A stretch of 64,000 nucleotides of DNA from Candidatus Saccharimonadota bacterium. GTDB lineage: Bacteria; Patescibacteriota; Saccharimonadia; CAILAD01; BJGX01. The position numbers and the translations under genes are program-made. Below, one piece after another: positions 11,984 to 45,318 of this stretch. The notes beneath the pieces were generated by a model. That model made no database searches. It saw only the letters and a list, made by a program, of their open reading frames with translations, and was not told the origin of the DNA. The stretch lies in NCBI GenBank assembly GCA_016191105.1, contig JACPPH010000008.1, positions 136,951 to 200,950 of the forward strand. The letters run 5' to 3'. Within the stretch, counting starts at the first letter, position 1, and every line of letters begins with the position of its first letter.

Positions 11984-13357
11984 ATGCCAAGAAAAAAGAA
12001 TATATTTACAAAAGCTGTCGAGGTTCCAGCGGTAGCTTTAGACAAAACGGTTGATACTGCTAAAAACGTTTCTGGTAAGCTACCGCAACCGCATGTGATT
12101 CAGCGAACCAAAAACTTTTGGCATAATTTGGGCCCTGGATTAACCACCGGCGCATCTGACGACGACCCATCGGGGATAGCCACATATTCACAAACTGGTG
12201 CCCAGTTTGGATTTCAATTTTTGTGGATGGCAATATTCACTTATCCTCTGATGTCGATTGTGCAAGAAATGTGTGCACGTATTGGCTTGGTAACCGGCCG
12301 GGGGTTGGCTGGTAATATTCGGATTCATTTTCCACGCTGGGTGATTGCAACCGCAGCTATATTGTTATTTGCTGCCAATGCCTTTAATATTGGTGCTGAC
12401 CTGGGTGCTATGGCTAAGGCTGTCCAATTGATAAGGCCGAGTATGAACTACGGTGTTTTGGTAATTGGCTTTACTGCTTTTAGTATTTGTTTGCAAATCT
12501 TTACGCCATACGAAAAATATGCCAAGTACCTTAAATGGTTAGCGCTAATCTTGCTCTCATATATTGTCTCGGCTTGGCTGGCTAATCCCAATTGGCAAGA
12601 GGTGCTTACACGTGCTGTTGTTCCAAGTTTTAATTTTAACAAAACTCAAATTCTCATAGTCTCTGCTATTTTGGGCACGACTATTTCGCCATACTTGTTT
12701 TTCTGGCAGACATCGCAAGAAGTTGAAGAGCAGATCTTAAAGGGTCGCACCACGGTGTTACAGCGCCAGGATTCCAATAAAAAAGAGGTGCGTCAAATGC
12801 GGGTCGATGTTTGGTCGGGTATGTTGCTATCAAACATTGTAATGTTTTTTATTATTGCGGCTTCTGGTGGCATCTTGTTCCCAAACGGCGTAACCAATAT
12901 AGGTACTGCTGCCCAAGCCGCCGAAGCCTTGCGGCCATTTGCTGGCGATGCAACATATTGGTTATTCGCAATCGGTATTATTGGCACAGGTTTACTTGCC
13001 ATTCCGGTTATGGCCGGTGCGAGCTCATATGCTTTCGCTGAAAGCTTTGGTTGGCAAGAAGGTTTGTTCCGAAATCTCAAACAGGCTCATGCCTTTTATG
13101 GTGTTATAATCTTCTCTATGCTAATTGGTCTGGCCTTAAATTTTGTTGGCCTAGATCCGATTAAGGCTTTAATTTATGCTGCTGTTGGCAACGGCATTGT
13201 TGCGCCTGTTGTGTTGGCACTAATTGTGATAATTAGTAGTAATCCAAAGCACATGGGCCGCTGGGTGAACAAAAAGTCGGTTACCATCATGGGCTGGCTT
13301 ATAACTGGTGTTATGGCAATAGTCGGCATTGCCGCTATTATCTCGATGTTGTCATGA
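11984..13357 (+). CDS. mntH: NRAMP family divalent metal (Mn2+/Fe2+) transporter
   Basis: TGASDDDPSGIATYSQTGAQFGF plus about 11 TM segments. Confidence 0.85.
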   Translation: MPRKKNIFTKAVEVPAVALDKTVDTAKNVSGKLPQPHVIQRTKNFWHNLGPGLTTGASDDDPSGIATYSQTGAQFGFQFLWMAIFTYPLMSIVQEMCARIGLVTGRGLAGNIRIHFPRWVIATAAILLFAANAFNIGADLGAMAKAVQLIRPSMNYGVLVIGFTAFSICLQIFTPYEKYAKYLKWLALILLSYIVSAWLANPNWQEVLTRAVVPSFNFNKTQILIVSAILGTTISPYLFFWQTSQEVEEQILKGRTTVLQRQDSNKKEVRQMRVDVWSGMLLSNIVMFFIIAASGGILFPNGVTNIGTAAQAAEALRPFAGDATYWLFAIGIIGTGLLAIPVMAGASSYAFAESFGWQEGLFRNLKQAHAFYGVIIFSMLIGLALNFVGLDPIKALIYAAVGNGIVAPVVLALIVIISSNPKHMGRWVNKKSVTIMGWLITGVMAIVGIAAIISMLS

Positions 13358-13395
13358 CTAAAAAAGATCCAACTTTGGATCTTTTTAGATAAATT

Positions 13396-13473
13396 TGGGG
13401 TGAGTGATGGGGCTCGAACCCACGACCTTCGGGACCACAACCCGACGCTCTAACCAGCTGAGCTACACCCACC
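13396..13473 (-). tRNA. tRNA-His (anticodon GTG) with encoded G-1 and CCA
   Basis: Folds as GGTGGGTG-TA-GCTC...GAGC / TCGGG-TTGTGGT-CCCGA / GTGGG-TTCGAGC-CCCAT / CACTCAC-C-CCA, with G-1:C73. Confidence 0.85.
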
Positions 13474-13502
13474 ACGTCCAAATAATGCTTCGATAAGCAT
13501 TG

Positions 13503-13516
13503 CGAATAGTTATTCG
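13503..13516. promoter_or_regulatory. perfect palindrome CGAATAGTTATTCG within a conserved module upstream of the tRNA-His 5' end
   Basis: Same 14-nt palindrome recurs at 13808-13821 upstream of tRNA-Arg(TCT), embedded in about 85 nt of conserved flank with TTGAAT and TATTAT-like boxes. Confidence 0.4.
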
Positions 13517-13595
13517 CAATTTACATTCTCGCATTATTTCTCCTATCGATTCAACAAATAGAAACAATTCTCTTGCTGAATCGACTAGAAAAGCA

Positions 13596-13701
13596 ATGAA
13601 ATTTATTCGATCAAAAGCGGGAACGGTTTTGATCGTGAGGAGAATTGCTATATCAGCTGTAGCAATTTAATAAATACGAAAGCTACAATAGCAATTCGAC
13701 G
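13596..13701 (-). repeat. tRNA 3'-flank repeat module (family B), minus orientation, downstream of tRNA-Arg(TCT)
   Basis: Reverse complement matches 15713-15846 and 15924-16065 (CGTCGAATTRCTATTGTAGCTTTCGTA...GATCAAAAC...GCTTTTGATC). Confidence 0.6.
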
Positions 13702-13778
13702 TGGTACCCCCGGCAGGACTCGAACCTGCGACCTACGGTTTAGAAAACCGTTGCTCTATCCAGCTGAGCTACGGGGGC
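13702..13778 (-). tRNA. tRNA-Arg (anticodon TCT), CCA encoded
   Basis: GCCCCCG-TA-GCTC AGCTGGATA GAGC-A-ACGGT TTTCTAA ACCGT-AGGTC-GCAGG TTCGAGT CCTGC-CGGGGGT-A-CCA. Confidence 0.85.
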
Positions 13779-13807
13779 ACGTTCAAATAATACTCTGATA
13801 TTTGGTA

Positions 13808-13821
13808 CGAATAGTTATTCG
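13808..13821. promoter_or_regulatory. second copy of palindrome CGAATAGTTATTCG upstream of the tRNA-Arg(TCT) 5' end
   Basis: Part of the conserved family-A flank (13779-13870) shared with 13474-13560. Confidence 0.4.
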
Positions 13822-14018
13822 CACCTTATATTCTCGCATTATTTATCTCTGCGATTCAAATTTATTCGACAATTTGAATCGCAGAGTCAGCTGCTGGCTA
13901 CTCTTACCAAAGACAATTAGAATACTTTCAATTGTTTTTGGTAATAGGAAATTTTAGGCATCAGCCAAAGAGAACATAAAAGTCTTTTGTTCTCGAAGGC
14001 TAAAGCCTAAAAATGACG

Positions 14019-14093
14019 TGGAGCGGGTAGCGGGAATCAAACCCGCATCGCCTGCTTGGAAGGCAGGCATAATAATCATTATACGATACCCGC
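14019..14093 (-). tRNA. tRNA-Gly (anticodon TCC), CCA encoded
   Basis: GCGGGTATCGTATAATGATTATTATGCCTGCCTTCCAAGCAGGCGATGCGGGTTTGATTCCCGCTACCCGCTCCA. Anticodon stem CCTGC/GCAGG with loop CTTCCAA. Overall very similar to the canonical bacterial tRNA-Gly(UCC) scaffold, with a D-loop lacking GG. Confidence 0.75.
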
Positions 14094-14316
14094 TTAGAGC
14101 CAAAACGCCATTTTAGATGGTCGTTAAGGCTACTTAATATAAGGTGCCAGGCCGAGGCCCACAAGAACAATATAATACTAGAAAACAAGCCATATTTCAA
14201 GTTGGTGCTAATGCACCTATCCTATCAAAAGTATAGCACGGCCCAATACTCGGTTGCATAAGCTCAACGATTGGTGTTTAATTAACTATATAGTAAAAAC
14301 TACAAGGAGTTATACA

Positions 14317-14775
14317 ATGACAAAATCTGCACTTATTAAAGCTTCGGCTGCGGCAGCAGCGCTAAGTAGCTTGGCGCCGCTGGTCGCTCGAGCCGATGAT
14401 ATTAGCAGCACTACCACCGATACAGCCAGCACCGCGGCCGGTACTGCCGCTGCAGGTGGTATATTGGGTGTTGTTCTAATTTTTTGGATCTTGTTCTTGG
14501 CAATTGCGTTAGGATTTTTTATTTTTTGGGTTGTAATGCTAATTGATGCCTTTAAGCGAACCAACTGGCAAGACGAAGGCCAAAAGAATCTGTGGCTAAT
14601 AATACTGATCGTCTCGATTTTCGTGGGCTTGGCTTGGTTGGCGGCTCTGCTGTACTACTTCATTATCAAGCGAGCTCTCGACAAGGGTGCGGCACCGCAA
14701 GTGGCTGCCCAGGCTAGCCAGCCAACAGCTCCAGCTCAACCGGCCACTCCAGAACAAGACAACCAACAAAAGTAA
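14317..14775 (+). CDS. small secreted/membrane protein (signal peptide, 3 TM helices, Gln/Pro-rich tail)
   Basis: RBS AAGGAG 8 nt upstream of the ATG at 14317. Hairpin plus T-run terminator follows at 14792-14824. Confidence 0.5.
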   Translation: MTKSALIKASAAAAALSSLAPLVARADDISSTTTDTASTAAGTAAAGGILGVVLIFWILFLAIALGFFIFWVVMLIDAFKRTNWQDEGQKNLWLIILIVSIFVGLAWLAALLYYFIIKRALDKGAAPQVAAQASQPTAPAQPATPEQDNQQK

Positions 14776-14791
14776 CAGTTTACAAACCATA

Positions 14792-14824
14792 AAAGCGCCT
14801 GAGTTTAAGCCGGGCGCTTTTTGG
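14792..14824 (+). terminator. Rho-independent terminator
   Basis: aaagcgcctg-agttta-agccgggcgcttttt hairpin followed by a T-run. Confidence 0.5.
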
Positions 14825-14839
14825 TATAATGCGAGAGCA

Positions 14840-15577
14840 ATGAAAATTACTCCAATCAAAACCCGTCCGTTAATTCCGCCTAAAGATGACTTGCTAGCCG
14901 TAATAGCAGAAAGTTTAAAGGAGCTGCCAGAGCAATCAGTTTTGGCCATTGCCTCGAAGGTAGTGGCGATTGATGAGGGTAGATGTATCCCGCTGAGCGA
15001 GATTGAGCACGATGACCTAGTGAAACGAGAGTCTGATAAGTATTTACCGCGTAGCTGTGTGCCTGGAGCCCACATTATACATACTCTGAAGAACAACCTG
15101 CTAATTGGCTCTGCTGGCATAGATGAGAGTAACGCCAACAATTACTTTATACTCTGGCCCGAAGATCCAAAAGCTTCTGCTAAACAGATTTTTGAGTATT
15201 TGAAAAGTGAATTTGGAACTAAGCGATTCGCAGTTTTAATAACTGATTCTCATTCTGTCGCGATGAGGCGAGGCACGGTGGGCATATCGTTGGCGAGCTA
15301 CGGCCTAAAGCCATTAAAGGACTATCGTGGTAAAGAAGATATATTTGGGCGAGAGCTTAAAGCCACAATGACCAATCTTGCTGATGGCTTAGCGGCAGCC
15401 GCCACACTGGTAATGGGAGAGGGCGCAGAAGTCTGCCCATTGGCCTTGATTGAAGATTTAGATGTAGAGTTTATTAGCCAACCCTACAGACCGACAGATC
15501 CTGATGGTAGCTTTGAAATACCACCAGAACAAGATATGTTTAAGCCGTTTTTTGATGGTGTAGACTGGCAAGAATAG
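14840..15577 (+). CDS. CofE-like protein (F420-0:gamma-glutamyl ligase family, PF01996 fold)
   Basis: MKITPIKTRPLIPPKDDLLAVIAESL...LAIASKVVAIDEGRCIPL mirrors the CofE N-terminal motif (I-x-G-LP-x-I-x-GDDL...V-x-SK-x-V-SK-x-EGR). Confidence 0.5.
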   Translation: MKITPIKTRPLIPPKDDLLAVIAESLKELPEQSVLAIASKVVAIDEGRCIPLSEIEHDDLVKRESDKYLPRSCVPGAHIIHTLKNNLLIGSAGIDESNANNYFILWPEDPKASAKQIFEYLKSEFGTKRFAVLITDSHSVAMRRGTVGISLASYGLKPLKDYRGKEDIFGRELKATMTNLADGLAAAATLVMGEGAEVCPLALIEDLDVEFISQPYRPTDPDGSFEIPPEQDMFKPFFDGVDWQE

Positions 15578-15635
15578 CTATCTCCTGGGTGACTTTCATT
15601 GCCATAAGATATATGGTAAAATAACCTGGTTTCTA

Positions 15636-15712
15636 GCGCCCTTAGCTCAGCGGATTAGAGCGACTGGCTTCGGACCAGTAGGTCGGGGGTTCGAATCCCT
15701 CAGGGCGTACCA
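15636..15712 (+). tRNA. tRNA-Arg (anticodon TCG), CCA encoded
   Basis: GCGCCCT-TA-GCTC AGCGGATTA GAGC-G-ACTGG CTTCGGA CCAGT-AGGTC-GGGGG TTCGAAT CCCTC-AGGGCGT-A-CCA. Confidence 0.8.
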
Positions 15713-15846
15713 CGTCGAATTACTATTGTAGCTTTCGTAACTCACAGTTACTTCAGCTGACATATTAATTCTCCTCGCGATCAAAACCATTGCTGCTTTT
15801 GATCGGTTGAAAACAAGCCGATTCAAGTTGTCGAAATTTGAGTTGG
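15713..15846 (+). repeat. tRNA 3'-flank repeat module (family B) between tRNA-Arg(TCG) and tRNA-Lys
   Basis: cgtcgaattactattgtagctttcgtaactcacagttacttcagctgacata...ctcctcgcgatcaaaaccattgctgcttttgatcg. Near-identical to 15924-16065. Confidence 0.6.
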
Positions 15847-15923
15847 GGGCCATTAGCTCAGTTGGTTAGAGCATCTGCCTCTTAAGCAGAGTGTCCTGGG
15901 TTCGAGTCCCAGATGGCCCTCCA
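15847..15923 (+). tRNA. tRNA-Lys (anticodon CTT), CCA encoded
   Basis: GGGCCAT-TA-GCTC AGTTGGTTA GAGC-A-TCTGC CTCTTAA GCAGA-GTGTC-CTGGG TTCGAGT CCCAG-ATGGCCC-T-CCA. Confidence 0.85.
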
Positions 15924-16065
15924 CGTCGAATTACTATTGTAGCTTTCGTAATCCATGATTACTTCAGCTGACATAGCAATTCTCCTTGCGATCAAAACCA
16001 TTCCCGCTTTTGATCGAAAACAAAATAACCGATTCAAATTGTCGAAGAAATTTGAATCGAATAGC
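15924..16065 (+). repeat. tRNA 3'-flank repeat module (family B) between tRNA-Lys and tRNA-Pro
   Basis: Second tandem copy of the CGTCGAATTACTATTGTAGCTTTCGTAA...GATCAAAACC...GCTTTTGATCG module. Confidence 0.6.
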
Positions 16066-16142
16066 CGGGGTGTGGCGCAGTTGGCTAGCGCGCCGCGTTT
16101 GGGACGCGGAGGTCGAAGGTTCGAGTCCTTTCACCCCGACCA
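16066..16142 (+). tRNA. tRNA-Pro (anticodon TGG), C1:G72, CCA encoded
   Basis: CGGGGTG-TG-GCGC AGTTGGCTA GCGC-G-CCGCG TTTGGGA CGCGG-AGGTC-GAAGG TTCGAGT CCTTT-CACCCCG-A-CCA. Confidence 0.8.
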
Positions 16143-17929
16143 GAAGATATTTTTGGTAAATCCGCCAGTAAATTATATGGCGGATTTAGTGTTATTTCAG
16201 ATATAGAGTCGTTTGCGGCTCGTAGGTTCGACACTAGCTCGTTGCAAATAGTATCTTGTTCCACTAAATCGTTTGTGTTGAGCAATGTTTTCAGATAAGA
16301 ATCAATGAGTTCGTAGAAATCTTGCTCGCTTGGTAAGCTAGTGCCTAGTCGCTCCAATTCTTGCTCACTAGTTTTTTTGTTGTGTTTAGCTATATCTACC
16401 AGTTTTTGGTAGTGTTCTAATTTGCCATTGTGATGTTTTTTATAATCTTCTGGGTGGTCAACCTGAAACTGTTGGTAACGCATATAATGCTGTGTATTCG
16501 TTCTAACGTCTTTTTTCGCATTACTTAACTTGCGTTTAGCAATAGCTATCTCCTGTGCATGCTTGCTTTTTAGACGTTCAATGTACAGCTGATATGCTTC
16601 TTTACTATTCTTCGTTAGATGTCGTAAAGTCCACTCAATAGCTGACGAAACATATTTGGCTCTAATACTCTTTTTGAGTTTGATACCTTTCTCTCGGTTT
16701 TCTTCTGCTTTATAACGTTGGCAGTTAGTATTCCTGCAATAAAAACTAATAACCCATCTCCCCTTATTTTTGCCCTTTTTAATAGGCTGATGTTGGAATT
16801 GCATTGGAAGATCGCAGTAATCACAAATAACCTTGCCCCTTAGTAGGCCATAACCTAGCTTTTTGGCGTTTACAGAGTTGCCCACGTGTTTTTCACCGTA
16901 ACTAGCTGCCGTACCCTTGTTAAGGGCAATATACTCGTCAGGCGTCATTAAAGGCAAGAAGTCATAAGTTTCTGCTAAATTGGTCAGGTTGTTACCATAT
17001 CTATATAGCCCAAAATAGAATGGGTCTTCAAATAAATCGCCCACCATTTGTTTATCCACTCGCACTACCTTATAAGGCTCGTCTTGATCTTTACGTTCGC
17101 TAAAGTAGGCAGAGTTTAAGAATTCGGCAACCTCTATATTGCTTTTACCCTCCTGTAATCGCATGATTACACTTTGTCTCAATAAATCCCAGTTATATCC
17201 ATCTGGAATAAAGTATCCTGTACTAGCATCAACATAATAGCCTTTTTTTGTTACGCCGTTATATTTACCTTCTTTAATATTGCCACTAGTACCACGCTTA
17301 ACATCCACAGACAACTTATCAGAATACTGTTTCGAAGTGGCAAATAGTATTCCTAGCATCATTTTGCCATTTGGATTGTTCTCAAATTGGTACGTTCTGA
17401 ACTGTAAATCCTGAATCTGCTCATGGTCTATCATTTCAATGACTTCGCCCGCTTCTTTCATATTCCTTGATATTCTGTCGGGCGACCACGAAATTAGACC
17501 ATGATACTTGCCAGTCTTAAATCCCATAATCATGTCGTCAAATATAGGCCGATTGCCTGAGATCTTGGCAGAAGCTGACTCTTCAAGTATATCTTCTTCT
17601 CGTATTGTAATACCTTGTGCTTCCGCTAGTTCAAGACACTCAGACCGTTGATCTTCTAATGATCTAACTTGTTTTGATTCGTCATCAGTTGATTTACGTA
17701 GATATAGTACATAACACCGCCTTTCTTTTGGGAGTATTCGTTTACTTCCTTCTTGCTCACGAGCAAAATACTCTGTTAACTGCTCAACTGTATGGCTACT
17801 CGCAGGTAAATTAAATACGTCAGGATTACCTTCCTTTTGCTTGGCAAGCCTTTTTTCAATTTCAACTACCTTGTCGCTCGGTAGGTATGCAATCTTGCGT
17901 CTTCGTGCTGGTTTTTTCTGATTAGCCAT
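16085..17929 (-). CDS. large serine recombinase (resolvase/invertase catalytic domain + recombinase domain + zinc ribbon)
   Basis: N-terminal YVLYLRKSTDDESKQVRSLEDQ...ISWSPDRISRN (catalytic Ser/Arg motifs), central recombinase domain, Cys-rich CDYCD...CRNTNC zinc ribbon. The last 19 codons read through the tRNA-Pro(TGG) 3' half on the opposite strand. Confidence 0.85.
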   Translation of the reverse strand: MANQKKPARRRKIAYLPSDKVVEIEKRLAKQKEGNPDVFNLPASSHTVEQLTEYFAREQEGSKRILPKERRCYVLYLRKSTDDESKQVRSLEDQRSECLELAEAQGITIREEDILEESASAKISGNRPIFDDMIMGFKTGKYHGLISWSPDRISRNMKEAGEVIEMIDHEQIQDLQFRTYQFENNPNGKMMLGILFATSKQYSDKLSVDVKRGTSGNIKEGKYNGVTKKGYYVDASTGYFIPDGYNWDLLRQSVIMRLQEGKSNIEVAEFLNSAYFSERKDQDEPYKVVRVDKQMVGDLFEDPFYFGLYRYGNNLTNLAETYDFLPLMTPDEYIALNKGTAASYGEKHVGNSVNAKKLGYGLLRGKVICDYCDLPMQFQHQPIKKGKNKGRWVISFYCRNTNCQRYKAEENREKGIKLKKSIRAKYVSSAIEWTLRHLTKNSKEAYQLYIERLKSKHAQEIAIAKRKLSNAKKDVRTNTQHYMRYQQFQVDHPEDYKKHHNGKLEHYQKLVDIAKHNKKTSEQELERLGTSLPSEQDFYELIDSYLKTLLNTNDLVEQDTICNELVSNLRAANDSISEITLNPPYNLLADLPKISSGRGERTRTFDLRVPNAAR

Positions 17930-18035
17930 TCACACCTCAATAATAGTTATTTTCTCACTAGATTACGAACCTATCAAATCCTAAGTGTGACTTATAGTCC
18001 GTAGACCCATAGTCTACTGCTAATCAAGATAGGGT

Positions 18036-18254
18036 ATGACAAAAACATACCCAGAGGTAGCCGCTCAGTTTGGTCAAAGGCTTAGAAAAATTCGTGAATC
18101 AAAGGGCATCTCACAAGAGAAATTAGCCAATGAATCTGGGCTTGATCGCACATATGTCTCTGGAATTGAAAGAGGCAGACGCAATCCGTCACTTATCAAT
18201 ATCTCAAAACTGGCTAAAGGTTTAAACGTAAAGATCACGGATCTATTTAATTAG
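18036..18254 (+). CDS. XRE-family helix-turn-helix transcriptional regulator
   Basis: LRKIRESKGISQEKLANESGLDRTYVSGIERGRRNPSL canonical HTH_3. Divergent from the recombinase. Confidence 0.8.
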   Translation: MTKTYPEVAAQFGQRLRKIRESKGISQEKLANESGLDRTYVSGIERGRRNPSLINISKLAKGLNVKITDLFN

Positions 18255-18426
18255 TGTATGCTTTTTATTGTGTGAGAAAACTACCCTCTGTGTATCATTT
18301 TATAGCGTCAATTAATTCTTCTAACCTGGCCTAATTTGAAGCTATTGAATCTTTTGTTTAGATATTGCATTATATTTAAGTGTGACTTATAATCTACGCA
18401 AGTTAAAAATTAAATCAGGAGTTACT

Positions 18427-18978
18427 ATGGCAACTAAGAAATCTAACAAGACAGCTATTATCGTTGTAATTGCGATCATTGTAGCGTTATTGGTAGTAGG
18501 TGGAGGAGCATACTATTTCATTTGGGGCAACAAGACCCAAGTTACAACAAATAACGGTACAGCAAGTGTAGAGAGTAACACAAATAAGAAACAACTTAAT
18601 GTAGAGCAAATACTTGCAAACGTAAAAGCAAAATATCCTACCGTAACAGAAGTAAAAATATACAGTGAACAAAATGACCCAAACAATCAGCTAGGTAAGC
18701 CAGGGTATTACATAGCGGGAGGTGCTTTTGCAGATTCACGAGCAGGCGGAATCTCAGATAGCAATTGGGGTGCAGAAGCGGGTGGAAGTATAGAAATATA
18801 TCAGACAGAAGCAGATGCAGCAAAGAGAACAGAATATCTAAAGCAGTTTCAAGGCAATGCTTTGCTAGACCCAGGGGCTTATAAGCAGATTGGTGTAGTG
18901 ATTGTAAGAGCATCTAGCAAATTAACTGCTTCACAGCAGGCTGAGATTGTAGATTATCTTGCCAGCCAAGTGCAGTAA
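18427..18978 (+). CDS. membrane-anchored secreted protein of unknown function (island cargo)
   Basis: RBS AGGAG upstream of the ATG at 18427, N-terminal TM/signal peptide, Asn/Gly-rich mature part. Confidence 0.45.
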   Translation: MATKKSNKTAIIVVIAIIVALLVVGGGAYYFIWGNKTQVTTNNGTASVESNTNKKQLNVEQILANVKAKYPTVTEVKIYSEQNDPNNQLGKPGYYIAGGAFADSRAGGISDSNWGAEAGGSIEIYQTEADAAKRTEYLKQFQGNALLDPGAYKQIGVVIVRASSKLTASQQAEIVDYLASQVQ

Positions 18979-19016
18979 TGGTTCAATAGACCAAGATATT
19001 TAATTAGGAAAAACAA

Positions 19017-19655
19017 TTGGGATTTAAGGATCTAACGTCAAAGGCAAAAGCGAAGTGGGACGCTTACAACGAAGCTGCTAAGCAAAGAGCGGAAGAAGCA
19101 AGGAAAGAGCATGAAGCACAAGTAAAAGCAGAGAACGAACGCCGTGAAGCGGTTTTGTCTGGGAAACTTACACCCATTTCATTTCAAGGCTTAAGTTTAG
19201 ATGATGGTGAGACAGCTTATTATGGTGTTGGCGTAATAAGGTTTGCTGACAGAGAGTATGTTACTGAAGTCACAACTGGCAAAAGTAAGAAGAAACATGT
19301 CGTTAGTAGAGGTTTAGTTGGTGGTGTGCTTTTAGGCCCTGTTGGGCTGGTCGCAGGTGCGGCCACAGCAGGCAGTAAACACAACTCCAAAACCACCCAA
19401 CAAACCGATATACGCACCGAAGAAATAGACAGAGGGTCATTTTACTTAACAAATAAGAGACTATTGTTTGTAGGGTCAGAGATATTGTCACTCCCATACT
19501 CTAATATCTTAGCTTTTAGCGTAGAAAGTAATAAGTTGTATTTGAAGTACCCTGAAATGCAGCGAAATGAGTACTTTCAAGTTACAGATAACAACAACGA
19601 GCTTGATTTATACTATCAAGGTGTACAAAAATCGCTCGATAGTAGCAACAAATAG
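19017..19655 (+). CDS. hypothetical protein with PH-like (bPH/GRAM-like) C-terminal domain (island cargo)
   Basis: TTG start in the ORF track. Coiled-coil N-terminus and a YYGVGVIRF...GSFYLTNKRLLFVGSEILSLPYSNILAF pattern like bacterial PH domains. Confidence 0.4.
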   Translation: MGFKDLTSKAKAKWDAYNEAAKQRAEEARKEHEAQVKAENERREAVLSGKLTPISFQGLSLDDGETAYYGVGVIRFADREYVTEVTTGKSKKKHVVSRGLVGGVLLGPVGLVAGAATAGSKHNSKTTQQTDIRTEEIDRGSFYLTNKRLLFVGSEILSLPYSNILAFSVESNKLYLKYPEMQRNEYFQVTDNNNELDLYYQGVQKSLDSSNK

Positions 19656-19682
19656 TATAACTGGTCAATTACTGGTAAACAT

Positions 19683-20072
19683 TTAGGCAGCCCAGCTGTG
19701 GCCAAGGCTGTCTAGCTTCAAGTTATCACTTGTAAACATTATGGGTTCTTCTTCTTTGGCTAGACTATCAGATAGCTTAATAGCTAACTCTATCAATTTG
19801 CTAGTTGATACTTCTGATAAGTCTCTGTTACCTAATTCATCTCTAATAGCTGTCAATTGAGTCCCTAAAACCATCACTCTATGTCTTTTTGTAGCAAGGT
19901 ACTGATCACGTAGCGATTCTAGTTCAATCGCTTTATAATTTGCTAATTCACTTTCTAGTTCATCGCTCCATTTGATTAGGGTGGGTTTGCTTACTCCAAT
20001 AGATTCAGCAATACTGTTGTAGCTATTGCCTTTGGCTCTTAGCTCAATAAACTGCTGTTTCTTCTCATTCAT
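19683..20072 (-). CDS. HTH-domain protein (resolvase/terminase-small-subunit-like HTH; possible recombination directionality or regulatory factor)
   Basis: FIELRAKGNSYNSIAESIGVSKPTLIKWSDELE HTH motif, then a coiled coil. Confidence 0.45.
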   Translation of the reverse strand: MNEKKQQFIELRAKGNSYNSIAESIGVSKPTLIKWSDELESELANYKAIELESLRDQYLATKRHRVMVLGTQLTAIRDELGNRDLSEVSTSKLIELAIKLSDSLAKEEEPIMFTSDNLKLDSLGHSWAA

Positions 20073-20092
20073 AGGTTCTACAAACTTCTGGC

Positions 20093-20446
20093 TTAGAGAA
20101 AATTATTACCAGCCTGAGCATTGTGGCGTTCCACAGCCTGTCTATTTTTTTCTTCCTCTTCTTTAGTCCAGTAGTTTATCTTAAGACCAAATACAACACG
20201 ACTTACGGTGGCATTCTTGTTTTCTTTGCTTATATCGCCACCGCCTTCAATGAATTCCAGCACTTTAATACCAGCTTTGCCTGATTTTTTGTCTGAATGT
20301 TCTGCTGATACTGCTATATCAAACTCAATAGTGCGTGCATTGTCTTTCTCAGAAAACTGAATATCTCTTGATGTCTCTGTTCTAGCTTCATCAACAGCAG
20401 CATTGATCTGAGTTAAAACATCTTTCACAAAATCTTTTAAATTCAT
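20093..20446 (-). CDS. hypothetical protein (island cargo)
   Basis: 117-aa ORF. Its ATG overlaps the stop of an upstream 58-aa ORF (ATGA), suggesting translational coupling. Confidence 0.4.
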   Translation of the reverse strand: MNLKDFVKDVLTQINAAVDEARTETSRDIQFSEKDNARTIEFDIAVSAEHSDKKSGKAGIKVLEFIEGGGDISKENKNATVSRVVFGLKINYWTKEEEEKNRQAVERHNAQAGNNFL

Positions 20447-20619
20447 TGCTCTGTATCCTGTTTATTCTGTACAGATTGGCTTATATCAGGTGTTTGTGGC
20501 TTAAATTCTTCAATATGAACTCTACCATCTGGTGCAATAAATGGCCTATCTTCCCAATTAGTCGTGTCTGAGGGCGACGCTTGAGGTGGCAGTGGTTGTT
20601 CTTGAGGTTTATCTTCCAT
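20443..20619 (-). CDS. small hypothetical protein (58 aa), translationally coupled to the downstream gene
   Basis: ORF MEDKPQEQPLPPQASPSDTTNWEDRPFIAPDGRVHIEEFKPQTPDISQSVQNKQDTEQ, below the ORF-track size cutoff. Stop TGA overlaps the next ATG. Confidence 0.25.
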   Translation of the reverse strand: MEDKPQEQPLPPQASPSDTTNWEDRPFIAPDGRVHIEEFKPQTPDISQSVQNKQDTEQ

Positions 20620-20803
20620 AATTACATTATAGCAAGAATGTAGTTTCTAAGGCTCTACTAGGCTTTACCAGGTTATCAAGCTGTTGTTTTAGATGTTCTA
20701 ATTGATTATTGAGTAACCTATAATTGAGTAGAAGGGTATACAGGGCATCTAAGTTAGGTTCGATTTGAGTATGCATACCCCGACCACGTCATAATACCGC
20801 TTC

Positions 20804-20843
20804 AACACAAAAAGTGATTTCAACTGAAATCACTTTTGTTGTT
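20804..20843. repeat. perfect ~16-bp-stem inverted repeat (acaaaaagtgatttca / tgaaatcacttttgt)
   Basis: Seen directly; in the island's intergenic region. Confidence 0.6.
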
Positions 20844-20857
20844 TGTGCAGCATTTTT

Positions 20858-20896
20858 ACTCTTCAATTGAAAACAGTATAGTTTTCAATTGAAGAG
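20858..20896. repeat. perfect ~16-bp-stem inverted repeat (ctcttcaattgaaaac / gttttcaattgaagag)
   Basis: Seen directly; 15 nt from the previous IR. Confidence 0.6.
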
Positions 20897-21413: not shown

Positions 21414-21490
21414 CGGGGTGTGGCGCAGCCTGGTAGCGCGCAGCGTTCGGGACGCTGAGGTCGCCGGTTCAAGTCCGGCCACCCCGACCA
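21414..21490 (+). tRNA. tRNA-Pro (anticodon CGG), C1:G72, CCA encoded
   Basis: CGGGGTG-TG-GCGC AGCCTGGTA GCGC-G-CAGCG TTCGGGA CGCTG-AGGTC-GCCGG TTCAAGT CCGGC-CACCCCG-A-CCA. Confidence 0.85.
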
Positions 21491-21582
21491 ATCTAAGTTC
21501 ATCACTTGCTTAATTTAACTTGGCCAAGAGTTGCGTGATCTGAATCGGCGCGCCGGTTAGCCAGAATTGTATATCTGGCGCT

Positions 21583-21602
21583 GTCCGGCCACCCCGACCA
21601 AT
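21583..21602 (+). repeat. 20-nt direct repeat of the tRNA-Pro(CGG) 3' end (gtccggccaccccgaccaat), att-like remnant
   Basis: Exact copy of 21473-21492, located 93 nt downstream of the tRNA. Confidence 0.6.
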
Positions 21603-37880: not shown

Positions 37881-37932
37881 TGGTGACCCCAGGGGGAGTC
37901 GAACCCCCGTTGTCAGGATTAAAACCTGGTAC
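37881..37932 (-). pseudogene. 3'-half fragment copy of tRNA-Glu (anticodon loop mutated to UUUUAAU); tandem partial duplication
   Basis: Near-identical to 38046-38098 (T-arm, acceptor 3' strand, CCA, anticodon arm), but the 5' half cannot form an acceptor/D-arm. Confidence 0.55.
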
Positions 37933-38045
37933 CTTTCGTTATAAGTCAATTAGGGCTTACGCAAAAAGCTTAACGCCTTTTTGCTTCAGTCTCCATTAAC
38001 TTCTTCCTCTTAAATCAAAACACTTTGGTGACCCCAGGGGGAGTC

Positions 38046-38120
38046 GAACCCCCGTTGCCAGGATGAAAACCTGGTGTCCTAACCGCTAGACGATGGGGCC
38101 ACAAAGCAAGTGTTTTGATT
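38046..38120 (-). tRNA. tRNA-Glu (anticodon TTC), CCA encoded
   Basis: GGCCCCA-TC-GTCT AGCGGTTA GGAC-A-CCAGG TTTTCAT CCTGG-CAAC-GGGGG TTCGACT CCCCC-TGGGGTC-A-CCA. Confidence 0.85.
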
Positions 38121-38337
38121 TAGAAGGAACAATAAGCTGTAAGTTGAAATTTATAGCTTGAGCATAGTGGTTAGTGCTATCAATGTAAACTGAAGGCTTT
38201 CTTGTAACGCGACGATGGGACCATCAGCTAGTTTCTAGGCAAAAATAACCTCAAAATTATACCATTTATGCCTATATTCTTCAAGAGATTGGACAAGTGG
38301 TGGGTATTTAGGTATAACTTAAACCATAAGGATAATC

Positions 38338-44749: not shown

Positions 44750-44777
44750 TTTTCGTCTTTTTGTGCTAAAATAATCT

Positions 44778-45262
44778 CAACCCGGCCACAAGCGGTCCCA
44801 CCAGTGGGGCAACTCACAGGTTCGACTGCGGTTCTCGGGTGCCCATTGGGTTAAGTGCCGGTGTGCCTCGGTGCCTGTCCTACACAGGGGCGGGAAAAGC
44901 CGGTAGACTGGCTCGAGCGAGCTCCTGAGCTTGTAGGGCAACAGTGGTAGTGGAACTGCAAAGACAGCCAGGACTAGGGCTTAGAAACAGCCCCGGTTGA
45001 AAGAGTGCGTAACAGCTCACTGGTCGAGTGGTTCTGCGCCACAAAACGCAAGTGGTATGTTTCGGCGATGTCGGCCGCCGCGTGCCGACTTTAAGGGCCT
45101 CTGGCCTATCACATACCCACTCCGACCCTGGCGTTCGCGCTAAGGCGGGGCAAAGGTGGTTTCTCGAGCCGAACTAGAGACTCCACCAACCCCTCGATCG
45201 TATCGAGGTGCCATCCGGAAGGGTGGGCGGGGATTAAAGCATGTCCCCGTCCACTCGCTGGG
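44778..45262 (+). ncRNA. 23S rRNA domain II-like RNA (helices ~41-46 / L10-L11-binding GTPase-associated-centre region) as an isolated ~480-nt non-coding segment
   Basis: Co-linear blocks match conserved 23S sequence, e.g. ACAGCCAGGACTAGGGCTTAGAAACAGCC...AAAGAGTGCGTAACAGCTCACTGGTCGAGTGGTTCTGCGCC vs E. coli ACAGCCAGGATGTTGGCTTAGAAGCAGCC...AAAGAAAGCGTAATAGCTCACTGGTCGAGTCGGCCTGCGCG. Also AACCCGGCCACAAGCGGTCCC, GGTTAAGTG, CTAAGGCGGGGCAAAGG blocks. Extended -10 TGcTAAAAT at 44764-44772 and a terminator-like hairpin/T-run at 45224-45269. No ORFs. Confidence 0.45.
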
Positions 45263-45318
45263 CTTTTTTATTTACGGCAAATGTTCGTATGTGCTAATGC
45301 TTGTAGTAAAATAGACCA

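What the first reader, a model, noticed from the sequence alone, without database searches (positions are those of the whole stretch)
13474..13870. Conserved modules with a perfect 14-nt palindrome (CGAATAGTTATTCG) upstream of two minus-strand tRNA genes
The approx. 85-nt sequence immediately 5' of tRNA-His and of tRNA-Arg(TCT) is conserved (acgtYcaaataat...cgaatagttattcgca...attctcgcattattt...cgattcaa). It contains TTGAAT/TATTAT-like promoter boxes in the tRNA orientation and the palindrome, which is an ideal dimeric repressor/activator site. This points to shared, possibly regulated, promoters for individual tRNA genes.
Basis: seen in the sequence. Interest (0 to 1): 0.5.

Follow-up and report, generated by a model that had tools for sequence, protein, structure and literature searches.

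The report
Hairpin cassettes flanking Saccharibacteria tRNA genes
The repeat in front of tRNA-His and tRNA-Arg is real, but it looks like a species-specific RNA hairpin cassette, an inverted relative of the hairpins that follow other tRNA genes here, rather than a repressor-controlled promoter, and a promoter inside it cannot be excluded.

Summary
Two 83-nt modules (13474-13556 and 13779-13861, minus strand, 76% identical) sit directly 5' of tRNA-His and tRNA-Arg(TCT) in a Saccharibacteria genome. The "perfect 14-nt palindrome" is really a 6+2+6 inverted repeat. It forms the tip of a 22-bp, three-helix hairpin that both copies keep intact through 20 differences.

A covariance model of the module finds no further copy anywhere. 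It does hit the 3' trailer hairpins of five other tRNAs in the window and three or four in three relatives, always in antisense and abutting the CCA end. The module is therefore an inverted paralogue of a lineage-specific tRNA-flanking hairpin family.

Six close relatives have Arg(TCT) and His only 2-69 nt apart, with no module. A canonical TTGAAA-17-TATTAT promoter upstream of tRNA-Gly is conserved in the window and one close relative.

Most likely the module is a transcribed leader/spacer hairpin in a Gly-Arg-His operon. An internal weak promoter (TTGAAT-18-TGcGAGAAT) remains possible, and a transcription-factor operator is unlikely. Modest interest.

The parts
13396..13473 (-). tRNA-His(GTG), including the encoded G-1 at 13473
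   Evidence: ARAGORN; Rfam tRNA 64.8 bits; sequence
13474..13556 (-). Module M1. It is an 83-nt cassette directly 5' of tRNA-His, with a three-helix hairpin spanning 13480-13539
   Evidence: Repeat D2; alignment; fold -19.9 kcal/mol, z -3.6; 22/22 pairs; model R1 107 bits
13499..13520 (-). Inner stem-loop of M1 (AUUGCGAAU-AACU-AUUCGCAAU).
13525..13533 (-). Extended -10-like box TGCGAGAAT in M1. Under the promoter rival, the predicted start is near 13519-13517
   Evidence: Sequence; invariant block; below the threshold of the promoter scan
13545..13585 (-). Hairpin P upstream of M1 (GUCGAUUCAGCAAGAGAAU...UUCUAUUUGUUGAAUCGAU). Its 3' arm holds the TTGAAT box at 13549-13554
   Evidence: Fold -19.8 sense vs -12.0 antisense. 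A closely similar hairpin (ATTCAACAAGAGAAT...TTCTATTTGTTGAAT) lies 6 nt upstream of both tRNA-Pro genes in L084
13603..13702 (-). Trailer unit of tRNA-Arg(TCT). It begins CGUC after CCA, followed by long hairpin T (13642-13697), the linker UUCUCCU, and short hairpin H2 (13608-13635)
   Evidence: Repeats D4, I2, I9, I12; R1 hit 13626-13702(+); alignments
13702..13778 (-). tRNA-Arg(TCT)
13779..13861 (-). Module M2. It is an 83-nt cassette directly 5' of tRNA-Arg(TCT). The hairpin spans 13785-13844, the 14-mer is at 13808-13821, and the TGCGAGAAT box is at 13830-13838
   Evidence: (-20.5 kcal/mol, z -6.0); identical in the independent assembly L085
13847..13886 (-). Hairpin P upstream of M2, a perfect 16-bp stem (CUCUGCGAUUCAAAUU / AAUUUGAAUCGCAGAG). 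The TTGAAT box is at 13854-13859
   Evidence: I13; I9; fold
13936..14019 (-). Trailer unit of tRNA-Gly (CGUCAUUUUUAGGC...GCCUAAAAUUUCC). A similar trailer occurs in L092 and L087
   Evidence: R1 hit; folds; relatives
14019..14093 (-). tRNA-Gly(TCC), the first gene of the Gly-Arg-His cluster
14172..14200 (-). Canonical sigma-70-type promoter TTGAAA-17-TATTAT upstream of tRNA-Gly. It is conserved with the same spacing in relative L084
   Evidence: Scan (10/12); L084 sequence
13361..13386 (.). Terminator hairpin after tRNA-His (AAAAAGAUCCAA/UUGGAUCUUUUU). It ends the cluster
   Evidence: I24; fold
15712..16065 (+). Sister spacers of the opposite-strand cluster Arg(TCG)-Lys-Pro(TGG). Each consists of T, H2 and P without any M. 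The P hairpins (15818-15846 and 16029-16060) end 0 and about 5-6 nt before the next tRNA
20786..20896 (+). Original trailer of tRNA-Pro(TGG), displaced by a 4.6-kb island. It is the closest relative of P+M when read in antisense. It has a CGUC start, a long hairpin with terminator features, and a perfect 16-bp hairpin at 20859-20896
   Evidence: R1 33.3 bits, E 3e-6; I1, I8; sequence

Best explanation
M1 and M2 are two copies of a species-specific, hairpin-forming leader/spacer cassette. Each is transcribed together with its tRNA as part of a Gly-Arg(TCT)-His precursor. That precursor is driven by the conserved TTGAAA-17-TATTAT promoter upstream of tRNA-Gly and ends at the terminator after tRNA-His.

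The so-called palindrome is the apical stem of a 22-bp, three-helix RNA hairpin. The hairpin ends 6 nt (7 counting the encoded G-1 of tRNA-His) before the RNase P site (...GRACGU|G).

The cassette is an inverted paralogue of the trailer units that follow other tRNAs of this lineage. Those units run CCA|CGUC, long hairpin, UUCUCCU, short hairpin.

Inferred role: a self-contained folding unit that keeps neighbouring tRNAs from misfolding with the long spacer. It would also offer a double-stranded target or stop for the nucleases that cut the precursor apart; an RNase III-type cut in the 22-bp stem is the concrete guess. RNase P then removes the remainder.

Shown: the repeat, the hairpin and its maintenance, the family relationship, the absence from relatives, and the operon promoter.
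Inferred: read-through transcription, and any role in processing.
For: 1. Both copies fold into the same hairpin (z -3.6 and -6.0).
2. All 22 pairs are standard in both copies despite 20 differences. Seven differences fall in stems. They make two double compensatory changes (A-U to G-C, U-A to G-C) and three G:U changes.
3. Twenty random substitutions keep all pairs with probability of about 3e-5 to 2e-4.
4. On the opposite strand, 1 and 2 of these pairs become mismatches, and folding is weaker (-16.8 and -12.9 kcal/mol vs -19.9 and -20.5).
5. Model R1 hits trailer hairpins abutting the 3' ends of Gly, Arg(TCT), Arg(TCG), Lys and Pro(TGG) in the window, and of Arg(TCG), Pro(TGG) and Gly (plus a weaker Pro(TGG) hit, E 0.05-0.09) in L086, L084 and L092. 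These hits are always in antisense with the model's ACGU on A76.
6. The family alignment is 94% paired, with 21 of 22 pairs showing double changes; slid controls give 31-46%. This alignment is fitted to the model's structure and includes the two antisense rows of M itself, which inflates these counts.
7. Hairpin P, immediately 5' of M, is an RNA-sense structure. The Lys copy gives -12.3 vs -0.9 kcal/mol and the His copy -19.8 vs -12.0. In L084 it lies downstream of a TATAAT box in a tRNA-Pro leader. Transcription therefore plausibly enters M from upstream.
8. The sister spacers Arg(TCG)-Lys-Pro carry T-H2-P with no promoter-like site before the next tRNA, so these units do not stop transcription.
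9. Relatives have Arg(TCT)-His 2-69 nt apart (2-13 nt in five of the six) and Gly-Arg 29 nt apart in the two closest. That indicates an ancestral co-transcribed cluster.
10. The Gly promoter is conserved with identical spacing in L084.
11. The whole 229- and 240-nt spacers fold into consecutive hairpins (-78 and -91 kcal/mol).
Against: - Only two copies of M exist, so the covariation rests on seven substitutions. Hairpin-templated mutation could mimic selection.
- The 5' half (AAAUAAUGCGAGAAU) is invariant while the facing 3' half varies. A plain hairpin does not explain this asymmetry; a promoter box would.
- Strand evidence is weak for the family as a whole. Most trailer units fold better on the strand antisense to their tRNA, so G:U counts are not a reliable guide to the working strand.
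- More distant relatives (L090, L092) do have a separate TGGTACAAT promoter in front of Arg(TCT).
- No RNA data exist, and no nuclease was tested.
- M is absent from the closest relatives, so whatever it does is dispensable.
Confidence: 0.4

Rival explanations
1. Promoter cassette. Each module carries its own sigma-70 extended -10 promoter: TTGAAT, 18 nt, TGcGAGAAT. Transcription would start about 7 nt downstream, at the foot of the inner stem. The inverted repeat would then be a 5'-terminal leader hairpin, or less likely the operator of a dimeric regulator centred near +12.
For: - The blocks that are invariant between the copies are exactly TTGAATCG, AAATAATGCGAGAAT and TGCGAATAACTATTCG. The differences fall in the -35/-10 spacer, just after the -10 box, and downstream of the repeat.
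- tRNA promoters of this lineage are of the TGn-extended type: TGGTAAAAT before Arg(TCG) here and in L086, and TGGTACAAT before Arg(TCT) in L090 and L092.
- A long structured leader also follows the Gly promoter.
- More distant relatives transcribe Arg(TCT)-His from a promoter of their own.
Against: - The match is 8/12, with G instead of T at the first -10 position and an 18-nt spacer. It is below the scan threshold, and promoter-like matches occur at the shuffled rate (6 found vs 5.3 expected).
- TTGAAT is explained by hairpin P, which is RNA-sense-specific and abuts the tRNA elsewhere.
- The outer stem pairs the untranscribed 5' arm with the leader, which this model leaves unexplained.
- His has no promoter in any relative.
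- For the operator version: there is no third site in 64 kb, in 99 loci or in the metagenome scan. No specific regulator gene was recognised among the neighbours scanned. The compensatory changes at the flanks of the repeat serve pairing, not protein contacts.
Confidence: 0.25
2. The module is a relic or selfish palindromic unit without a dedicated role. It would be an inverted duplicate of a trailer/terminator unit, closest to the Pro(TGG) trailer. It would have been copied into the Gly-Arg-His spacers of this one species by duplication, template switching or a MITE/REP-like process, and tolerated because RNase P still finds its site. At most it would damp antisense transcription across the tRNAs.
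For: - M is found in this species only. The two closest relatives have compact spacers of 29 nt (Gly-Arg) and 13 or 69 nt (Arg-His).
- P+M aligns end to end with the antisense of the Pro(TGG) trailer plus its perfect 16-bp hairpin (33 bits).
- tRNA genes in this window are recombination hot spots. There is a 4.6-kb recombinase island at Pro(TGG), and duplicated tRNA 3' ends at Pro(CGG) and Glu.
- On the plus strand the inner hairpin is followed by a T-rich tail.
Against: - There are no target-site duplications at the hairpin ends (sequence).
- All family members abut tRNA ends at a fixed register, and none lies elsewhere in 64 kb.
- Pairing is kept through 20 differences far better than random drift allows.
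- Trailer hairpins at corresponding positions in L086, L084 and L092 keep the architecture while the sequence diverges.
- No transposase of the RAYT or IS200 type was seen among the ORFs scanned. The scan was incomplete.
Confidence: 0.25
3. The module encodes a tiny peptide on the tRNA strand. The peptides would be MRECKLRITIRNAYRSIIWTWWV (M1, AGGAG 5 nt upstream of ATG) and MREYKVRITIRTKYQSII (M2), and their translation would influence the downstream tRNA transcript.
For: Same frame in both copies. 13 of 18 residues are identical. Three of the differences are synonymous third-position changes. These are read directly from the alignment.
Against: - The same three changes are G:U wobble or compensatory positions of the hairpin.
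- M2 has a poor ribosome-binding site.
- The M1 frame runs into the tRNA.
- The related trailer units do not keep an ORF.
- There are no His codons and no AGA codons, so nothing would link translation to the downstream tRNAs.
Confidence: 0.04
4. The inverted repeat with its non-symmetric GT centre is a recombination site for the large serine recombinase encoded 2.3 kb away.
For: Serine recombinase sites are imperfect dyads around a central dinucleotide (established knowledge). A 614-aa Resolvase-domain protein lies at 16085-17929.
Against: The junctions of the recombinase island (16143 and 20785) share ACCCCGACCA. By inspection they show no similarity to M. The two M copies are direct repeats with an essential tRNA between them, so recombination between them would delete it.
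Confidence: 0.03

Closest known systems
Transcribed spacers and leaders of bacterial polycistronic tRNA operons, processed by RNase P and other endonucleases (E. coli valV-valW, lysT, metT and secG-leuU transcripts; PMC4176162, PMC2241853)
   Same: Several tRNAs lie behind one promoter and ahead of one terminator. The spacers are removed. Structure next to the tRNA influences RNase P access; a synthetic example of leader sequestration is in PMC7897497. A U at -1 and a few unpaired nucleotides precede the cleavage site.
   Different: The spacers here are 229-240 nt and are built almost wholly from repeated hairpin units. Those units recur at other tRNAs in fixed register with the tRNA ends. No such repeated cassette is described for the E. 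coli operons, and processing here is untested.
Correia repeat-enclosed elements (CREE/NEMIS) of Neisseria (PMC2649163)
   Same: A short multi-copy inverted-repeat element. It can create promoter boxes at its ends and, when transcribed, forms a hairpin bound or cut by RNase III. This is the same dual reading as is open for M.
   Different: CREE are 100-155 bp MITE-like elements dispersed in hundreds of copies next to many kinds of genes, with TA target duplication and an IHF site. M has two copies, no target duplication, and no sequence similarity to CREE. Its relatives all abut tRNA ends.
Leader-trailer processing stems of rRNA operons (RNase III substrates; established knowledge)
   Same: Long double-stranded segments flank a stable RNA and are removed during maturation. 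tRNA-Glu in this window has such a leader-trailer stem.
   Different: M is a local hairpin, not a leader-trailer duplex. Complementarity between M and the trailer of the same tRNA is limited to short motifs (AGGAGAA/UUCUCCU, GACG/CGUC).
REP/BIME extragenic palindromes and their RAYT transposases (established knowledge)
   Same: Imperfect palindromes in intergenic DNA that occur in both orientations.
   Different: REPs are 20-40 nt, carry a conserved 5' GTAG, occur in tens to hundreds of copies between many kinds of genes, and go with a RAYT gene. None of these features was seen here.
Dyad-symmetric operators that also act in the transcript, such as CIRCE/HrcA (established knowledge)
   Same: An inverted repeat just downstream of a promoter could act both as a protein site and as an RNA hairpin.
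   Different: CIRCE is conserved across phyla and recurs at several operons with a cognate repressor. This repeat is confined to two paralogous copies in one species.

Membership tests
Sigma-70-type promoter (extended -10 class) | -35 and -10 hexamers close to TTGACA/TATAAT, 16-18 nt apart, optionally with TG at -15/-14 | tested here: inconclusive
   TTGAAT (4/6), 18 nt, TG-c-GAGAAT (4/6, with A2 and T6 kept) in both copies. The total of 8/12 is below the 9/12 threshold of the scan, and the scan's yield equals that of shuffles.
Sigma-70-type promoter (extended -10 class) | A mapped primary transcript 5' end about 7 nt downstream of the -10 box | not testable with these tools
   No transcript data are available. 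The predicted positions are 13519-13517 and 13824-13822.
Sigma-70-type promoter (extended -10 class) | Conservation of the boxes at the orthologous position in relatives | tested here: not met
   Six relatives have no module. His follows Arg(TCT) after 2-69 nt. The Gly promoter, by contrast, is conserved.
Operator of a dimeric transcription factor | Dyad symmetry of the site | tested here: met
   CGAATA-GT-TATTCG has 6-nt arms around a non-symmetric centre. The arms extend to 9-10 nt.
Operator of a dimeric transcription factor | Recurrence of the site at several promoters (a regulon), or at orthologous promoters | tested here: not met
   There are only the two paralogous copies in 64 kb. No genuine occurrence was found in the 99 loci: the only matches are the same-organism contig L085 and the chance hits retrieved by pattern scans. 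The 3 metagenome and 7 IMG/VR matches are chance, with no module around them.
Operator of a dimeric transcription factor | A cognate regulator gene nearby | tested here: inconclusive
   The neighbours scanned are Nramp, HU, YmdB, a CofE-like ligase and hypothetical membrane proteins. No specific regulator was recognised, but not all ORFs were scanned.
Cis-acting structured RNA (leader/spacer hairpin) | A fold more stable than shuffled sequence | tested here: met
   z -3.6 and -6.0 for the 72-73-nt cores on the tRNA strand.
Cis-acting structured RNA (leader/spacer hairpin) | Pairs maintained through compensatory change | tested here: met
   22/22 pairs in both copies, with 2 double changes and 3 G:U changes. 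The chance probability is 3e-5 to 2e-4. The family alignment has 21 of 22 pairs with double changes, but it was fitted to the model and includes the two antisense rows of M itself.
Cis-acting structured RNA (leader/spacer hairpin) | Evidence that the folded strand is the transcribed one | tested here: inconclusive
   M folds better on the tRNA strand, and the adjoining hairpin P is sense-specific. Most related trailer units, however, fold better in antisense.
MITE / REP / Correia-like mobile palindromic element | Terminal inverted repeats with target-site duplication | tested here: not met
   The outer stem supplies inverted ends, but the flanks (GGAG...GGAC and AGAT...GAAC) are not duplicated.
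MITE / REP / Correia-like mobile palindromic element | Many dispersed copies at unrelated sites | tested here: not met
   All model hits with E below 0.1 in the window abut tRNA genes or a tRNA fragment. The rest of the genome could not be searched.
Any Rfam family | A match to a curated covariance model | tested here: not met
   Only the tRNAs score. Nothing covers the modules at E up to 5 or at gathering thresholds.
Intrinsic terminator | A G+C-rich hairpin followed directly by a U run | tested here: not met
   Not reported by the scan on either strand. The plus-strand tail is T-rich but below the threshold.

The most novel reading that the evidence does not exclude
The tRNA genes of this Saccharibacteria lineage are bracketed by a dedicated family of about 110-nt two-hairpin cassettes. 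These dock in fixed register on the mature tRNA ends: GACGU|G1 on the 5' side and CCA|CGUC on the 3' side, as mirror images. On this reading the cassettes spread between tRNA genes by a targeted copying or recombination process, and they supply the signals (promoter, nuclease ruler, insulation) that a reduced genome with few RNases uses to express and excise each tRNA. They would be a tRNA-end-specific mobile processing module.
Probability: 0.1. Interest if true: 0.6.

Novelty: new variant of a known kind. Interest (0 to 1): 0.3.

Why it matters
If the reading is right, the finding is not a new regulatory circuit. It shows how a tiny-genome, uncultivated bacterium builds its tRNA operons. Long spacers are assembled from repeated hairpin units that sit in exact register with tRNA ends, and they turn over quickly: they are present in one species and absent from its nearest relatives.

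This gives a concrete, testable substrate for studying tRNA precursor processing in Patescibacteria, where the set of RNases is reduced and nothing has been mapped.

It is also a caution for motif-based regulon prediction. Here an apparent operator is the tip of an RNA hairpin, and an apparent -35 box is the arm of another.

The practical value is limited, because the module is confined to two copies in one metagenome-assembled genome.

Tried and rejected
- Rfam search of 12500-17000 at E up to 5, and of the whole window at gathering scores: nothing but tRNAs over the modules.
- Nramp-anchored retrieval of 80 Saccharibacteria loci: synteny with the tRNA cluster is not kept, so these loci served only as negative controls and as a sample of tRNA promoters.
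- Metagenome scan for TGCGAGAAT-N6-12-CGAATANNTATTCG: three hits, all inside unrelated G+C-rich or coding sequence, with no tRNA nearby. This is the number expected by chance.
- IMG/VR scan for the 16-mer: seven hits, none with the module around it.
- blastn of the whole spacer against phage genomes: no match.
- The source NCBI contig (203 kb) could not be retrieved. Only an identical 2-kb Logan contig was found, so the rest of the genome was not searched.
- YATTAT box 8 nt before the tRNA as a -10 element: rejected. It has no -35 (ACTATT), no TG, and it is the 3' arm of the outer stem.
- AATAAT as a -10 element: rejected, because no -35 lies at 16-18 nt.
- Leader-trailer pairing of M with the trailer of the same tRNA: only 4-7-nt motifs are complementary, and the local hairpins win in folding.
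- Strand inference from G:U pairs across the family: gave mixed results and was down-weighted.
- Small-ORF reading and recombinase-site reading: kept as minor rivals.
- Literature searches found no description of such elements in Saccharibacteria or Patescibacteria.
Full report
**What is there**

The window comes from a Saccharibacteria (TM7, Patescibacteria) genome. A neighbouring Nramp gene retrieves only Saccharibacteria contigs at 63-71% identity. Two window proteins are named by NCBI as Candidatus Saccharibacteria proteins.

ARAGORN and Rfam place three tRNA genes on the minus strand: tRNA-Gly(TCC) at 14019-14093, tRNA-Arg(TCT) at 13702-13778 and tRNA-His at 13396-13472. tRNA-His has its G-1 encoded at 13473. 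A second cluster, Arg(TCG)-Lys-Pro(TGG), lies on the plus strand at 15636-16142.

An ungapped 82-83-nt direct repeat lies immediately 5' of His and of Arg(TCT), with 20 differences. The 14-mer occurs exactly twice in 64 kb, and only there. An independent Logan assembly reproduces the Arg(TCT) copy.

**What the palindrome is**

The 14-mer is not self-complementary; its reverse complement differs at the two central bases. It is the tip of a much longer hairpin. On the tRNA strand both copies fold as follows (z -3.6 and -6.0):
- a 9-bp outer stem (AAAUAAUGC/GCAUUAUUU)
- an internal loop
- a 4-bp middle stem
- a 9-bp inner stem closed by AACU

All 22 pairs are standard in both copies. Seven of the 20 differences fall in stems, and every one preserves pairing. 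Two are double compensatory changes at the foot of the inner stem (A-U to G-C and U-A to G-C). Three are G:C or A:U to G:U changes.

In a simulation, 20 random substitutions left all pairs intact in only 3e-5 to 2e-4 of trials. On the opposite strand the wobble pairs become mismatches and the fold is weaker. Something therefore keeps this a hairpin, which a duplex binding site for a dimeric protein would not require.

**The module belongs to a family that flanks tRNA genes**

I built a covariance model from the two copies. It found no third copy in any of these searches:
- the window
- 80 other Saccharibacteria loci and the two first relatives
- seven closer relatives
- IMG/VR hits for the 16-mer

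A metagenome pattern scan returned three chance matches.

The model did hit the sequence immediately 3' of other tRNAs. E-values in the 7.7-kb search ran from 3e-6 to 0.07. In the window the hits follow Gly, Arg(TCT), Arg(TCG), Lys and the displaced trailer of Pro(TGG). In relatives they follow Arg(TCG) in L086, Pro(TGG) in L084, and Gly in L092, with a weaker hit (E 0.05-0.09) after Pro(TGG) in L092. Every hit lies on the strand antisense to the tRNA, with the model's final ACGU lying over A76.

Read in one orientation, all members share the same plan: a short hairpin (xCGAUy...yAUCGx), the linker AGGAGAA, a long three-helix hairpin, and GACGU next to the tRNA end. The family alignment is 94% paired, and 21 of 22 pairs show changes on both sides, against 31-46% pairing in slid controls. 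That alignment was fitted to the model and includes the two antisense rows of M itself, which favours the structure.

So the unit upstream of His and Arg(TCT) (hairpin P plus module M) is an inverted paralogue of the trailer units (CCA|CGUC, hairpin T, UUCUCCU, hairpin H2). It is closest to the original Pro(TGG) trailer at 20786-20896 (33 bits).

**The promoter-like boxes**

In the closest NCBI relative, L084, a closely similar P hairpin ends 6 nt before both tRNA-Pro genes and lies downstream of a TATAAT box. In those places it cannot be a -35 element.

The Lys copy contains three G:U pairs. It folds at -12.3 kcal/mol on the tRNA strand and -0.9 on the other. The His copy gives -19.8 vs -12.0. 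P is therefore an RNA structure of the sense transcript, which means transcription plausibly reaches M from upstream.

The best promoter reading is TTGAAT, 18 nt, TGcGAGAAT. It scores 8/12, below the threshold of the scan, and the scan itself finds promoter-like sites at the shuffled rate.

In its favour, the invariant blocks between the copies are exactly TTGAATCG, AAATAATGCGAGAAT and TGCGAATAACTATTCG, while the facing 3' half of the hairpin varies. The lineage also uses TGn-extended -10 boxes before tRNAs.

**Comparative context**

I retrieved relatives through a lineage-specific membrane protein and a CofE-like gene that lie between the two clusters. They show the ancestral layout.
- Arg(TCT) and His are 2 nt apart in L087, L089, L090 and L092, 13 nt apart in L086 and 69 nt apart in L084.
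- Gly and Arg(TCT) are 29 nt apart in the two closest relatives, and 113-256 nt apart, with a separate TGGTACAAT promoter seen in L090 and L092, in the more distant relatives.
- None of them has M.
- In the window these spacers are 229 and 240 nt. They fold almost entirely into consecutive hairpins (-78 and -91 kcal/mol).
- A canonical TTGAAA-17-TATTAT promoter precedes tRNA-Gly at 14200-14172. The same boxes with the same spacing are present in L084.
- A terminator follows His.
- The sister spacers between Arg(TCG), Lys and Pro carry T-H2-P with no promoter-like site. These units therefore do not end transcription, otherwise Lys and Pro would not be made.

**Most likely mechanism**

I conclude, with moderate confidence of about 0.4, that M is a transcribed leader/spacer hairpin of a Gly-Arg-His precursor. 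It is recently derived by inverted duplication of a trailer unit and is maintained as a hairpin.

The repeat, the structure, the family relationship, the absence from relatives and the operon promoter are shown. Read-through and any function are inferred.

The concrete proposal is that each hairpin unit folds on its own and so keeps the long spacer from interfering with tRNA folding. The hairpin would also give a double-strand-specific nuclease, or a nuclease that measures from a hairpin, a defined target. The 22 bp are about the size of an RNase III substrate. An RNase Y gene lies near the corresponding tRNA clusters in relatives L090 and L092. RNase P would then cut at GRACGU|G, where 6 nt (7 counting His G-1) remain unpaired.

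Known E. coli polycistronic tRNA transcripts are separated by RNase P and are sensitive to neighbouring structure (PMC4176162, PMC2241853, PMC7897497).

**Rivals**

- An internal promoter with a 5'-terminal leader hairpin is a serious alternative (about 0.25). Within it, the operator version is unlikely, because the site recurs nowhere and its flanks covary for pairing.
- A functionless or selfish relic is equally possible (about 0.25). The module exists in one species only, and tRNA genes here are recombination hot spots. Against it, there are no target duplications, every family member docks on a tRNA end, and pairing is kept far better than drift allows.
- A tiny ORF (18-23 codons, in frame in both copies) and a serine-recombinase site are minor rivals.

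The closest described analogue for the dual promoter/hairpin reading is the Correia element of Neisseria (PMC2649163). M fails that element's defining features of dispersal and target duplication.

**Limits**

- Only two copies of M exist.
- The rest of the source genome could not be searched.
- Strand inference from wobble pairs is inconsistent across the family.
- There are no transcript data.

**Verdict**

The regulated-promoter interpretation is only partly supported. The element is a new variant of a known kind, namely structured and repeated tRNA-operon spacer elements. Interest is modest.

Noticed in passing
window 16085-20785: A 4.6-kb island sits directly after tRNA-Pro(TGG). It carries a 614-aa serine recombinase (16085-17929, minus strand, with its 3' end overlapping the tRNA), an HTH protein (19683-20072) and small ORFs. 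The 10-nt sequence ACCCCGACCA is repeated at 16133-16142 and 20776-20785. After the second copy, the original tRNA trailer (CGTCATAATACC...) resumes. This looks like an integrated element in the tRNA 3' end.
   Followed up: partly
window 21414-21600: The last 17 nt of tRNA-Pro(CGG), TCCGGCCACCCCGACCA, recur at 21584-21600, only about 93 nt downstream of the gene. This resembles the footprint of an integration event with almost nothing left between the two att-like copies.
   Followed up: no
window 37881-38140: tRNA-Glu (38026-38100, minus strand) is followed, after about 95 nt, by a roughly 50-nt copy of its own 3' half (37881-37930; weak Rfam tRNA hit at 37886-37955). The 95 nt contain a long hairpin (37943-38002) of the same family. 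The 5' leader (CUUCUAAAUCAAAACACUU) is complementary to the start of the trailer (AAGUGUUUUGAUUUAAGAGGAAG), giving a leader-trailer stem of about 20 bp around the tRNA.
   Followed up: partly
window 44946-45045: A 100-nt stretch matches bacterial 23S rRNA (model positions 1071-1170, 76-82 bits). It lies inside a 570-nt G+C-rich gap between ORFs (44750-45318), with no other rRNA around it. It could be an rRNA fragment or an rRNA mimic. Nothing else in Rfam matches the gap.
   Followed up: partly
window 13474-13545 and 13779-13850, minus strand: Both modules hold an in-frame ATG-started mini-ORF. They encode MRECKLRITIRNAYRSIIWTWWV (M1) and MREYKVRITIRTKYQSII (M2). The M1 ORF has AGGAG 5 nt upstream. 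The linker AGGAGAA, or its complement UUCUCCU, is shared by all units of the family.
   Followed up: partly
window 13480-13539 and 13785-13844, minus strand: The internal loop between the outer and middle stems can form tandem G:A/A:G pairs in both copies (5' GA facing GAA in M1 and AGA in M2), with the extra A on different sides. This might be a protein-recognition motif. It was not analysed further.
   Followed up: no
window 13600-13702 vs 15712-16021: The trailer units of the minus-strand and plus-strand tRNA clusters are 84-97% identical in inverted orientation, about 2.1-2.3 kb apart (repeat pairs I2, I3, I9). That is higher than the identity between the tRNA genes themselves (72-77%, pairs I4-I7). 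This suggests recent copying or gene conversion, and the potential for inversion of the segment between them.
   Followed up: no
L087 (about 50-90 nt upstream of tRNA-Arg(TCT) at 146) and L092 3750-3812: In more distant relatives the tRNA-Gly trailer ends in a terminator hairpin CGAATAAAAA...TTTTTATTCG followed by GTTTTAT. Its arms begin with the same CGAATA/TATTCG as the repeat in M. This may be chance or a hint to the origin of the inner stem.
   Followed up: no
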